Source: Escherichia coli (lineage in GTDB: Bacteria > Pseudomonadota > Gammaproteobacteria > Enterobacterales > Enterobacteriaceae). From it: a DNA stretch of 64,000 nucleotides. This document shows, piece after piece, positions 45,101 to 48,100 of this stretch. The DNA is taken from assembly GCF_003334785.1 (NCBI RefSeq), contig NZ_QOWV01000001.1; one strand, 5' to 3'. Position numbers: made by a program. How positions within the stretch are numbered: the first letter of the stretch is position 1; every line of letters begins with the position of its first letter.

Positions 45101-48100
45101 ACAGGAATCAAGTTCTTTATCAGATCCGTCAGCGATAAAAAGCCAGGAGTCTTCGGCAGGGATCTCGAAATAGGTTGATTGTTCGGTTGCAAGGACAAAA
45201 GTACGAAAAAATTGTAGCGCTCTGTCATCATAAGTTAGCTGAAATTTTGATGTGCCTTTGTCGAATACGGCCTGTAAAACGTCATCTCGCTCGTGCAGGC
45301 GCAAATCAAATAATTCCATTCCCGCTTTGCCAAAACGGCGAGCAGGCGCGTAATCGCACAGCAGCTCAACAATATTATAGTGCCGTGGATCCTGACATAT
45401 AGCCCGATATATCATTTTAACCTGTTCTTCCGGACCTTCCAGAAGCTGGAAAAAATGAGAACCATTAAACAGTAAGATCCCTGTTACGTCAGACTGCATG
45501 TTCCTGCGATTTGCTATCGAAACCATTTCTTCGATTTTTTTGACAGGTTCGTCGTCACGTATATGGCTACGATAAATAAGGGTGGTAAGCATTAACAATC
45601 CAGGGTAATGGGTGAGGCGAGAGTAAGACGGTAACAGACATATCTTCTTGTGTCTTTCTTTTAATACCAAAACATAACCGTTTCTTTACATTGATAAAAA
45701 ATGGAAAAAGTTGAACACTAGTTGGCGAAAAATCTTGTATAGATTGTCAGTTAAATGATGCAATATGTTTTATCATAACACATTGTTTTATATGCATTAG
45801 CACTAATTGCAAAAAATTAATTTATCATTCTGTACACATATTTCGTACAATTTTGCTATTGTTACTTCACTTAACATTGATTAACATTTTTAACAGAGGC
45901 GTAGCATGCATCAAAATTCAGTGACTTTAGATTCTGCGGGAGCAATCACTCGTTACTTTGCAAAAGCTAACTTGCATACTCAGCAGGAAACTCTCGGGGA
46001 AATTGTGACTGAGATTTTGAAAGATGGACGTAATCTGAGTCGAAAGTCGCTTTGTGCCAAACTTCTTTGCCGACTGGAACACGCGACTGGGGAAGAGGAA
46101 CAGAAACATTATAATGCACTAATTGGGTTGCTTTTTGAATAATGCAACAGCCTGATTATTTAACAGGTTAGCTATGAAGTCGTTATGAAGACATCTGATA
46201 ATGAACGTATAAAATATGAAATTACTGGCCAGGCGGTGCTCCAGATACTGCGCATGAAGATAAATTTTTCATTGCAGACTCTTATTAAGCAATTACTCGT
46301 AATGAAATCGGCTGAGGAAGATGCTTTCCGACGCGATTTAATTGACAGCATAATTCGTGATTTTAGCAATAGTGATTCAGGAGGGCCAAACCGAAGAACA
46401 GCGACAGCTGACAATAAAAGTATGTTCAATGGTAAGAAAATAAACAGAATACATTAAAATTTCATAAGTAAGATGAGAGGTTACCATGCTTGAAGATACT
46501 ACAATTCATAATGCAATAACTGATAAAGCGTTAGCAAGTTACTTTCGCAGTTCGGGTAATTTGTTAGAAGAAGAATCAGCAGTGTTAGGGCAGGCTGTCA
46601 CCAATTTAATGCTTTCAGGCGATAATGTTAATAATAAAAATATTATCTTAAGTCTGATACACTCCTTGGAAACAACAAGTGATATTCTCAAAGCTGATGT
46701 GATTAGAAAAACACTGGAAATCGTGTTGCGATACACAGCTGATGATATGTAACTTCTAATTATTAAGTATAAGTTTATAGAAAACTCATTCATCTTATTT
46801 TTGTCTGTCGCTTTAGACTATACACAGCATAATTTTATTGGGTTAATATTTCTACGAGGCTGACATGAATAATTCAATCCCAGAGAGATTTATTTTTCAA
46901 TGTGCTTTGTTTAAAAATCTCGAGAGGGAGGTGTTCATGACGCATGGGTATGTTGATAGTCATATTATTGATCAGGCTTTACGCTTGCGTTTAAAAGATG
47001 AAACCAGTGTGATTCTTTCTGATCTCTATCTGCAAATATTGCAGTACATTGAAATGCATAAGACTACACTAACGGATATCATTATTAATGACAGGGAATC
47101 CGTGCTCTCTTAGAACTTGAGTAAGGTTTTAGAATAAACATCAGCTGTATCACCATGCTGATGCAAAGTGAGCATTTCAGGCGTTATGCTTTCTTATTAT
47201 GTCCGCAATATCAGGTGTCAAGAATGGAGAGTTCTCGCTCTCCATTCTTGACGCCTGATATCCCGCCTAACTTATTTTGTACTGCCTACATTATGCTCAA
47301 TAATTAATGGGTTAGATCAAGATGGAGAAAATTTTATCTTCGGCGTGGATATTTCTTATGCTCTCTACCATGCTCTCTGTAGATGCCAGCGCGAGCGAAT
47401 GAATGGCATTTTCATGTATTAAACCCTTTGGCCGGGACAAGCAAATGCGCAATACACTCATACCCATCCTCGTTGCGATATGCTTGTTTATTACCGGTGT
47501 CGCTATTTTGAACATCCAGCTCTGGTATTCCGCAAAAGCAGAGTACCTGGCGGGAGCGAGATATGCCGCCAACAATATCAATCATATACTTGAAGAAGCG
47601 TCACAAGCGACTCAAACAGCGGTTAACATTGCCGGGAAGGAATGCAACCTCGAGGAGCAATATCAGCTTGGCACTGAAGCAGCTCTGAAACCTCACCTGC
47701 GCACAATCATCATTCTCAAACAGGGAATAGTCTGGTGTACATCCCTGCCTGGGAATCGGGTCCTGTTGTCTCGTATTCCTGTTTTCCCGGACAGTAATTT
47801 ACTGTTGGCTCCAGCAATCGACACCGTTAATAGATTACCTATCCTGCTCTATCAGAACCAATTTGCAGATACGCGCATTTTGGTTACGATAAGCGATCAG
47901 CATATTCGTGGGGCACTTAATGTACCCTTGAAAGGGGTAAGGTATGTATTACGCGTGGCGGATGACATTATTGGACCAACGGGTGATGTGATGACGCTTA
48001 ATGGACATTATCCCTATACCGAGAAGGTTCACTCCACAAAATATCATTTCACTATTATCTTTAACCCGCCGCCACTCTTTAGCTTCTACAGACTTATCGA

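What the first reader, a model, noticed from the sequence alone, without database searches (positions are those of the whole stretch)
47207..47261. Near-perfect 24-bp hairpin in the ymgC-pdeG intergenic region
aatatcaggtgtcaagaatggagag / ctctccattcttgacgcctgatat form a stem of about 24 bp with a 6-nt loop; the single non-Watson-Crick position would be a G-U pair in RNA. This is far longer than a typical intrinsic terminator stem and has no strong U-tract. It sits between the ymgC stop and the pdeG start, so it could be an RNase III-type processing site, a small-RNA or type I toxin-antitoxin-like element, a long protein-binding palindrome, or a remnant of a small palindromic mobile unit.
Basis: seen in the sequence. 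Interest (0 to 1): 0.45.

Follow-up and report, generated by a model that had tools for sequence, protein, structure and literature searches.

The report
Unique long hairpin after ymgC
A single-copy, E. coli-specific 24-25 bp stem-loop lies in the untranslated gap between ymgC and pdeG; it most likely acts as an RNA structure at the end of the ycgZ-ymgABC message, its function is untested, and it is a tidy but fairly ordinary feature.

Summary
Arms 47208-47231 and 47238-47261 pair over 24 positions around a 6-nt loop. The only imperfection is T47216/G47253, a G·U wobble in + strand RNA. Folding gives about -44 kcal/mol (z about -10.5), and this is the strongest inverted repeat in the 64-kb window.

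It is not a repeat family: there is one copy per E. coli genome, none in phages or in other species' representative genomes, and no REP core or Rfam match. It is not an intrinsic terminator, because no U-tract follows it.

About 91% of complete E. coli genomes carry the locus, in two allele classes:
- a K-12-like near-perfect hairpin (about 64%);
- a "long" imperfect one (about 34%): 7-8 bp lower stem, internal loop, 14 bp upper stem.

At the one imperfect K-12 pair, three states segregate: U·G (2888 records), U-A (152) and C-G (71). Stem columns that pair in every allele vary less than the flanks. In those constantly paired columns every non-Watson-Crick state is a + strand wobble; two A·C states occur only in the long-type internal loop.

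Best reading (about 0.4): a + strand RNA stem-loop in the ymgC 3' UTR that blocks exonucleases and may be cut by RNase III, kept perfect by template-switch correction. I could retrieve no transcript-end data, so function stays inferred.

The parts
47208..47231 (+). Left arm of the hairpin (ATATCAGGTGTCAAGAATGGAGAG). Positions 47215-47222 are the segment that differs most between allele classes.
47232..47237 (+). Loop TTCTCG. In the minimum-energy fold, U47232·G47237 form a 25th pair around a UCUC tetraloop. The long alleles have CGCTCG here.
47238..47261 (+). Right arm (CTCTCCATTCTTGACGCCTGATAT). It is nearly invariant across all E. coli alleles apart from the first four bases and two rare variants.
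47216..47216 (+). T that pairs with G47253, the only imperfect pair. It is U·G in K-12 (2888 exact records), C-G in 71 records and U-A (G47253A) in 152 records.
47164..47196 (+). 33-nt block (CAAAGTGAGCATTTCAGGCGTTATGCTTTCTTA) just 5' of the hairpin, unchanged in all 24 alleles apart from one single-base deletion in one metagenome allele. It can form a small stem-loop. It may belong to the same 3'-UTR element; its role is unknown.
47248..47278 (+). TTGACG (47248-47253, inside the right arm), a 19-nt spacer, then TATTTT (47273-47278). This is the pdeG promoter guessed by Shimada et al. 2014 from an RpoD genomic-SELEX peak in this spacer. The -10 is not conserved in long alleles.
46865..47113 (+). 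[quoted passage not shown]

Best explanation
The element is a single-copy, E. coli-specific inverted repeat. I propose that it works as RNA on the + strand, as a very stable 24-25 bp stem-loop in the 3' untranslated region of the ycgZ-ymgA-ariR-ymgC message, 94 nt after the ymgC stop.

Proposed mechanism, all steps inferred:
- The operon has no intrinsic terminator before pdeG. Transcription therefore either stops by a Rho-type route downstream or runs on toward pdeG.
- The stem-loop is then the first structure able to stop 3'-to-5' exonucleases, so it would set and protect the mature 3' end.
- Because it offers more than 22 bp of uninterrupted duplex, it is also an expected RNase III substrate. 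Cutting would separate read-through RNA from pdeG.

Shown here:
- The structure, its uniqueness, and its presence in every E. coli allele of the locus.
- Lower variability in the stem columns that are always paired.
- Wobble-type and compensatory variation that fits the + strand.

The near-perfect K-12 form is one allele. Its perfection is best explained by template-switch (quasipalindrome) correction between the arms, with or without selection for pairing.
For: - Structure and significance.
- No U-tract or terminator-like site between ymgC and pdeG.
- One copy per genome, locus present in 4957 of 5426 complete E. coli genomes.
- The hairpin is kept in all 24 distinct alleles of the intergenic region. 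The long alleles fold better on the + strand (-26.6 to -29.5 kcal/mol) than on the - strand (-15.9 to -24.5).
- Columns paired in every allele vary at 3 of 34 positions, against 44 of 174 in the flanks (binomial P 0.015, Fisher 0.04).
- Non-Watson-Crick states in stem columns are six G·U types against two A·C types. Both A·C types lie in the long-type internal loop.
- Pair 47216/47253 exists as C-G, U·G and U-A, all in complete genomes.
- Literature. ycgZ-ymgABC is one polycistronic mRNA (PMC3509220). ymgC mRNA is detectable but not polyadenylated, the behaviour that paper associates with transcripts lacking a Rho-independent terminator (PMC1636475). RNase III accommodates about 22 bp of duplex and its sites are enriched in intergenic regions within transcripts (PMC6212723). 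Imperfect inverted repeats in E. coli are corrected to perfect ones by template switching (PMC5941160; PMC8794818 abstract).
Against: - No transcript 3' end, processing site or start site at this position could be retrieved. The Adams 2021 term-seq tables list nothing at 1217000-1217299. That says little, because the operon is repressed at 37 °C. The other data sets were not held.
- There is no double-sided covariation other than at one pair. E. coli-level divergence is too shallow for a real covariation test.
- The + strand wobble bias rests on few events. It could partly reflect C-to-T mutation bias on the + strand.
- Template switching alone can keep an inverted repeat perfect without any function.
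- The right-arm middle (TTGACGCC) is conserved even in long alleles, where it is largely unpaired. That hints at a constraint other than RNA pairing.
Confidence: 0.4

Rival explanations
1. No selected function. The hairpin is a neutral quasipalindrome in a fast-evolving, AT-rich, H-NS-bound, E. coli-specific island. It was created and repeatedly re-perfected by DNA template switching between the arms during replication.
For: - The allele classes differ by a tight cluster in the left arm: a 4-nt indel plus two G/T differences within about 10 nt. The short form of this segment is the reverse complement of the unchanged right arm.
- Both reciprocal corrections of the one K-12 mismatch exist: left copied from right gives C-G, right copied from left gives U-A.
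- Published evidence shows that perfect inverted repeats in E. coli K-12 are over-represented and conserved through template switching.
- The region is 33-47% GC and is marked as H-NS-bound.
- No transcript evidence was found.
Against: - A hairpin is retained in both allele classes, with constantly paired columns less variable than the flanks.
- In those constantly paired columns every non-Watson-Crick state is a + strand wobble.
- The changes at the top of the stem look stepwise (TTTTCC, TTCTCC, CTCTCC) rather than like one templated event.
- The direction of change between long and short could not be established, because the region is a recombination mosaic.
Confidence: 0.3
2. DNA-level regulatory site. 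The palindrome carries the -35 element of a pdeG promoter (TTGACG in the right arm), a mirror-image TTGACA on the - strand in K-12-type alleles, or a binding site for a dimeric regulator or H-NS-related silencing.
For: - An RpoD holoenzyme genomic-SELEX peak and an H-NS mark lie in the ymgC-ycgG spacer, with predicted promoter TTGACG-19-TATTTT. These map to 47248-47253 and 47273-47278.
- The right-arm middle is conserved in all alleles even where it is largely unpaired: 2 of 7 columns variable, both variants rare.
Against: - A 19-nt spacer is poor for sigma-70.
- TATTTT becomes TGTTTA in the long alleles.
- The consensus scan found no promoter-like site here on either strand.
- The SELEX peak has low resolution, and the promoter was only the best motif in the spacer.
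- A 24-bp continuous palindrome is much longer than usual operator half-sites.
- The - strand TTGACA has no acceptable -10 at 16-18 nt (sequence).
Confidence: 0.12
3. Part of a small-RNA or type I toxin-antitoxin-like module together with the 26-codon hydrophobic ORF 60 nt downstream (47322-47402).
For: An ORF encoding MEKILSSAWIFLMLSTMLSVDASASE follows the hairpin. Its first 31 nt are invariant across alleles.
Against: - No Rfam family and no NCBIfam family.
- No promoter-like site for an antisense RNA.
- The start codon is TTG in one lineage. The peptide variants are L12V, L12P, A22P, S7W, A24T and S23C, which suggests weak or no coding constraint.
- The element is single copy, and no gene is annotated here in RefSeq K-12.
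Confidence: 0.05
4. Remnant or member of a small palindromic mobile or repeat family (REP/BIME, ERIC, MITE, IS end).
For: None beyond its palindromic shape. In one strain, IS1 has inserted into the left arm.
Against: - One locus per genome in about 4950 E. coli genomes. The '2 places' per genome are the palindrome matching itself on both strands.
- No exact arm match in one representative genome for each of about 100,000 species.
- Only 14 plasmid records match. All are E. coli, non-mobilizable and large, so they are probably chromosome pieces. No phage matches.
- No REP-core match between 43575 and 51155, although REP-like sites are found elsewhere in the window.
Confidence: 0.03

Closest known systems
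Stable 3'-UTR stem-loops that define and protect mRNA 3' ends after Rho-dependent or inefficient termination (the role also played by REP hairpins in E. coli)
   Same: It lies 94 nt after the last gene of an operon. It is very stable (-44 kcal/mol). No U-tract and no intrinsic terminator occur before the next gene. The ymgC message is not polyadenylated.
   Different: It is single copy and unrelated to REP. At 24-25 bp it is much longer than needed for an exonuclease block. No 3' end has been mapped to it.
RNase III processing hairpins in intergenic regions within transcripts (for example rnc, pnp and the rRNA spacers)
   Same: It offers at least 22 bp of uninterrupted duplex between two co-oriented genes, the location class enriched for RNase III sites (PMC6212723).
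   Different: Cleavage has not been shown. Known natural sites usually contain internal loops or bulges that steer the cut. The long alleles do have an internal loop; the K-12 allele does not.
Quasipalindrome (template-switch) correction of imperfect inverted repeats (Ripley model; Lavi et al. 2018, PMC5941160; Mönttinen and Löytynoja 2022, PMC8794818)
   Same: There is a clustered multi-base difference between alleles that makes one arm the reverse complement of the other. Both reciprocal corrections of the one remaining mismatch are segregating.
   Different: The direction of change (imperfect to perfect) could not be proven, because there is no outgroup and the locus is a recombination mosaic. 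The changes at the top of the stem look like stepwise point substitutions.
Intrinsic (Rho-independent) terminator
   Same: A stem-loop downstream of an operon.
   Different: No U-tract within 0-2 nt of the stem, which is followed by CCCGCCUAAC. The stem is two to three times the usual length and only moderately GC-rich.

Membership tests
REP/BIME and other E. coli intergenic repeat families | Many copies per genome | tested here: not met
   One locus per genome. The palindrome self-match explains the '2 places' per genome.
REP/BIME and other E. coli intergenic repeat families | REP core sequence (GCCGGATGCGGCG-like) | tested here: not met
   No match with up to 3 mismatches between 43575 and 51155. 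REP-like sites were found elsewhere in the window, which serves as a positive control.
MITE / insertion-sequence remnant | Related copies in other genomes, plasmids or phages | tested here: not met
   No exact arm matches in species-representative genomes. Only 14 plasmid records match, all E. coli and probably chromosome pieces. No phage matches.
Intrinsic terminator | U-tract immediately 3' of a GC-rich stem | tested here: not met
   No terminator-like sites in 46700-47600. The sequence after the stem is CCCGCCTAAC.
RNase III substrate | About 22 bp or more of double-stranded RNA | tested here: met
   24-25 continuous pairs in K-12-type alleles. The long alleles have 14 + 7-8 bp split by an internal loop. 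The size requirement comes from PMC6212723.
RNase III substrate | rnc-dependent cleavage in vivo with staggered cuts | not testable with these tools
   The supplementary site tables of PMC6212723 are not held, and the main text does not mention the locus.
3'-end protective stem-loop | Mature mRNA 3' end mapped at the base of the stem | not testable with these tools
   No 3' end at 12170xx-12172xx in the Adams 2021 tables, which were collected at 37 °C when the operon is off. The other data sets were not held or had no entry.
Structured RNA under selection | Pairing kept through compensatory or wobble changes | tested here: inconclusive
   One pair shows C-G, U·G and U-A. Non-Watson-Crick states are six G·U against two A·C. 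Constantly paired columns vary less than the flanks, P 0.015. RNAalifold found no pair with a double-sided change, partly because of where the alignment placed the gap.
Rfam families | Covariance-model match | tested here: not met
   Only chance-level snoRNA and plastid hits with E above 1 in 46000-48500.
Type I toxin-antitoxin | Conserved small toxic ORF plus an overlapping antisense RNA | tested here: not met
   The 26-aa ORF has no family match, a variable start codon and many non-synonymous variants. There is no promoter-like site for an antisense RNA.
Template-switch (quasipalindrome) correction product | The clustered allele difference equals the reverse complement of the opposite arm | tested here: met
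   The short left-arm segment GG(C/T)GTCAAG is the complement of the invariant CTTGACGCC. The long alleles have GGGGGCAAACAGG or variants of it there.
Template-switch (quasipalindrome) correction product | The imperfect state is ancestral | tested here: inconclusive
   No outgroup carries the hairpin. Flank phylogenies are mosaic and conflict with each other.

The most novel reading that the evidence does not exclude
The hairpin could be an allele-specific RNA insulator between the cold- and blue-light-induced ycgZ-ymgABC operon and the c-di-GMP phosphodiesterase gene pdeG. In K-12-type strains the continuous 25-bp duplex would be cut by RNase III and uncouple pdeG. In strains with the interrupted 'long' hairpin, read-through or message stability would differ, giving lineage-specific wiring of biofilm signalling. 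In parallel, the locus could be a natural population snapshot of template switching building and repairing an RNA hairpin, since both reciprocal corrections of one mismatch are segregating.
Probability: 0.15. Interest if true: 0.5.

Novelty: new member of a known kind. Interest (0 to 1): 0.3.

Why it matters
If the stem-loop sets the 3' end and stability of the ycgZ-ymgABC message, or gates read-through into pdeG, it adds a post-transcriptional layer to the BluR/BluF-Rcs-c-di-GMP biofilm circuit. That layer would differ between E. coli lineages.

Independently of function, the allele series is a compact, checkable natural example for work on how template switching and selection create and maintain hairpins. 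The series runs from the imperfect long form through mosaic forms and the U·G form to the two perfect forms.

It is not a new kind of element, and nothing here overturns current understanding.

Tried and rejected
**Repeat or mobile element: rejected.** Searches of the window, 5426 E. coli genomes, plasmids, phages and species-representative genomes found one locus only.

**Rfam:** nothing.

**Intrinsic terminator or promoter scan:** nothing at the hairpin.

**Outgroup search to polarise long against short alleles: failed.**
- The YmgC peptide scan of representative genomes gave no confirmed locus.
- YmgC homologues are confined to E. coli.
- A divergent ymgC copy next to cybB-gapC-aldA (L094, L095) loses homology about 40 nt before the hairpin and has no hairpin.
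- Using that copy as an outgroup for ymgC sites gave a star-like, conflicting pattern.
- Flank trees and site patterns show that the 'hybrid' and L007-type alleles are recombination mosaics, so they cannot order the events.

**L074:** it looked like a diverged relative, but it is a K-12-like sequence from an error-prone assembly (86 gap openings in 4 kb), so I discarded it.

**Transcript-end, start-site and RNase III data: no usable entry for this locus.**
- The tables that were held listed no 3' end or entry at this locus.
- No supplementary files were held for four papers.
- Thomason 2015 and Tschowri 2009 are not in the library.

**The 50-aa ORF across the hairpin (47155-47307):** rejected as coding, because the 4-nt indel in the long alleles shifts its frame.

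**RcsB-box or IHF-site resemblance of the arms:** considered by eye and dropped. Only half-site-level matches exist, and no tool test was run.
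Full report
**1. The observation**

The window is E. coli K-12 MG1655, and NC_000913.3 coordinate = window + 1169883. ymgC ends at 47113 and pdeG starts at 47445.

Arms 47208-47231 and 47238-47261 form a 24-nt inverted repeat with one mismatch and a 6-nt spacer. The mismatch is T47216 opposite G47253. That is a U·G wobble on the + strand and an A·C mismatch on the - strand.

| Fold | Energy (kcal/mol) | z-score |
|---|---|---|
| RNA, + strand, 47190-47280 | -44.5 | -10.5 |
| RNA, - strand, 47190-47280 | -45.3 | -10.9 |
| Single-stranded DNA, 47200-47270 | -25.8 | -10.2 |

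The hairpin stays an independent domain when the whole 340-nt gap is folded. It is the strongest inverted repeat in the 64-kb window. No U-run follows it, and the scan found no terminator-like or promoter-like site at it.

**2. What it is not**

- *Not a repeat family.* The arm occurs only here in the window. A 71-nt query finds one locus per genome in about 4955 of 5426 complete E. coli genomes. The '2 places per genome' are the palindrome matching itself on the other strand, and imperfect alleles give 1 place.
- *Not found outside E. coli.* An exact 20-nt arm pattern has no match in one representative genome for each of about 100,000 species. Plasmid hits are 14 large, non-mobilizable E. coli records, and phages have none.
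- *Not REP.* There is no REP core near it, although REP-like sites are detected elsewhere in the window.
- *No Rfam family matches*.
- *Not coding.* The 50-aa ORF across it is frame-shifted by a 4-nt indel in other alleles.

**3. Population variation**

I collected the ymgC-pdeG gap from complete genomes and 81 metagenome contigs and obtained 24 distinct alleles. There are two classes.

*Short, K-12-like alleles* make up about 64% of genomes that carry the locus, that is, records at 95% identity or more. They have the continuous 24-25 bp stem.

*Long alleles* make up about 34%.
- The left arm is 28 nt. Its middle reads GGGGGCAAACAG, GAGGGCAAACAG, GGGAGCCAACAA or GGGAGCAAACAA.
- The loop is CGCTCG, and the right arm begins TTTTCC.
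- They fold as a 7-8 bp lower stem, an internal loop and a 14-bp upper stem.
- They are more stable on the + strand (-26.6 to -29.5 kcal/mol) than on the - strand (-15.9 to -24.5).

*Variants within the short class.* All of these occur in complete genomes.

| State or allele | Where seen |
|---|---|
| U·G at 47216/47253 (K-12) | 2888 exact records |
| U-A (G47253A), e.g. ATCC 8739 | 152 records |
| C-G (T47216C), e.g. ATCC 43896 | 71 records |
| Weaker short allele (one mismatch, three G·U) | complete genome and metagenome contigs |
| 'Hybrid': short left arm, long loop and right arm | 3 complete genomes |

**4. Evidence for constraint and for strand**

- Columns paired in every allele vary at 3 of 34 positions, against 44 of 174 in the flanks (binomial P = 0.015, Fisher P = 0.04).
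- The left-arm middle is hypervariable (9 of 11 columns). The right-arm middle is not (2 of 7).
- Among non-Watson-Crick states in stem columns, six are G·U on the + strand and two are A·C. Both A·C states lie in the long-type internal loop. Four other states are plain mismatches.
- The C-G, U·G, U-A series passes through the + strand wobble.

Together these favour a + strand RNA structure, but the number of independent events is small. A C-to-T bias on the + strand, or correction at the DNA level, could contribute. RNAalifold recovers the hairpin but reports no double-sided change, partly because of gap placement.

**5. Origin of the near-perfect form**

The class difference in the left arm is a 4-nt indel plus two G/T differences within about 10 nt. 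The short version is the exact complement of the invariant right arm apart from the T at 47216.

Both possible one-step corrections of the remaining K-12 mismatch exist, and both sit on K-12-like flanks that differ by only 0.4-0.6%. This is the pattern expected from quasipalindrome correction by template switching. That process is documented for E. coli K-12 inverted repeats (PMC5941160) and has been proposed as a source of RNA hairpins (PMC8794818 abstract).

I could not prove the direction long to short.
- No outgroup carries the hairpin.
- Flank sites polarised with a divergent ymgC copy give a star-like, conflicting pattern.
- The hybrid and intermediate alleles are recombination mosaics.
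- The top-of-stem states TTTTCC, TTCTCC and CTCTCC look like stepwise transitions rather than one event.

**6. Likely function**

What the literature establishes:
- ycgZ-ymgABC is one polycistronic message, and ymgC, pdeG and ymgF are E. coli-specific (PMC3509220).
- The operon is repressed by BluR at 37 °C and induced at 25 °C (PMC5491885).
- ymgC mRNA is detectable but not polyadenylated. That study links this behaviour to transcripts without a Rho-independent terminator (PMC1636475).
- RNase III accommodates about 22 bp of duplex, and its sites are enriched in intergenic regions within transcripts (PMC6212723).

With no intrinsic terminator between ymgC and pdeG, I infer that this stem-loop defines and protects the operon's 3' end after downstream termination. 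I also infer that it is a probable RNase III site that insulates pdeG.

None of this is shown. The only term-seq tables I could open list no 3' end here, but they were made at 37 °C. The other data sets were not held or had no entry for the locus.

**7. Rivals**

- *Neutral template-switch product (0.3).* This reading fits most of the data.
- *DNA-level role (0.12).* It is suggested by the RpoD genomic-SELEX peak and H-NS mark in this spacer. The predicted promoter TTGACG-19-TATTTT has its -35 at 47248-47253 in the right arm (PMC3946193), and the right-arm middle is conserved. However, the spacer is long, the -10 is not conserved, and the scan finds nothing.
- *Type I toxin-antitoxin or small RNA (0.05), and mobile remnant (0.03).* Both are poorly supported or refuted (section 2).

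**8. Verdict**

This is a real, statistically striking, unique stem-loop. It is a new member of a known kind, a long 3'-UTR or intergenic hairpin and a corrected quasipalindrome. It is not a new type of system. Interest is modest (0.3). The allele series is the most useful by-product.

Noticed in passing
window 47322-47402 (+): An unannotated 26-codon ORF (MEKILSSAWIFLMLSTMLSVDASASE) lies 60 nt after the hairpin. Its TGA stop abuts an ATG (47403) that is in frame with pdeG. Its first 31 nt are invariant across alleles. However, the start is TTG in one lineage, and the peptide variants include L12V, L12P, A22P, S7W, A24T and S23C. It has no NCBIfam match. It is probably not coding, so the conserved DNA may have another role, for example pdeG control.
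   Followed up: partly
window 47164-47196 (+): A 33-nt block (CAAAGTGAGCATTTCAGGCGTTATGCTTTCTTA) just upstream of the hairpin is unchanged in all 24 alleles apart from one single-base deletion in one metagenome allele, while about 30% of the other flank columns vary. The chance of a block of about this length (34 columns) staying fully invariant is about 5e-6. It can form a small stem-loop (GAGCAU/AUGCUU). Its function is unknown.
   Followed up: partly
L003 1710-2603; L006 1812-2705 (equivalent to window about 47404 onward): In many long-allele genomes, including O25:H4 and O2:H6 strains, pdeG lacks its 5' part and is annotated as a pseudogene 'missing N-terminus'. Homology to K-12 ends within a few bases of the stop of the small ORF. 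Some long-allele genomes keep an intact pdeG.
   Followed up: partly
L011 (strain CT29) 1501-2300; equivalent to window 47212: An IS1-family element is inserted inside the left arm of the hairpin, after ATATC. The right arm, the small ORF and pdeG are absent, and ymgF follows the insertion.
   Followed up: no
L094 116-425 and L095 324-628: A divergent ymgC copy (87% nucleotide, 82% protein identity) sits next to cybB-, gapC- and aldA-like genes in one E. coli assembly. Homology to the K-12 locus stops about 40 nt before the hairpin, and no hairpin follows. This suggests that ymgC has moved or duplicated without the hairpin.
   Followed up: partly
L099 (strain 1919D3), L096, L007, L049: The ymgC-pdeG region is a fine-scale recombination mosaic. 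For example, the 'hybrid' genomes are K-12-like except for a patch of about 400 nt of long-type sequence around the hairpin, and that patch itself contains a short-type left-arm segment of fewer than 25 nt.
   Followed up: partly
window 44226-44263: A perfect 14-nt inverted repeat (ATACTTTGTACAAT, 10 nt, ATTGTACAAAGTAT) lies between bluR and bluF.
   Followed up: no
window 46753-46864 (ariR-ymgC gap): [quoted passage not shown] The only promoter-like hit of my scan lies here on the - strand (46846-46817).
   Followed up: no
window 43000-51000: The whole bluF-ycgZ-ymgABC-pdeG-ymgF region is AT-rich (33-47% GC in 500-nt windows). Shimada et al. mark it as H-NS-bound, which fits a horizontally acquired, silenced island.
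   Followed up: no
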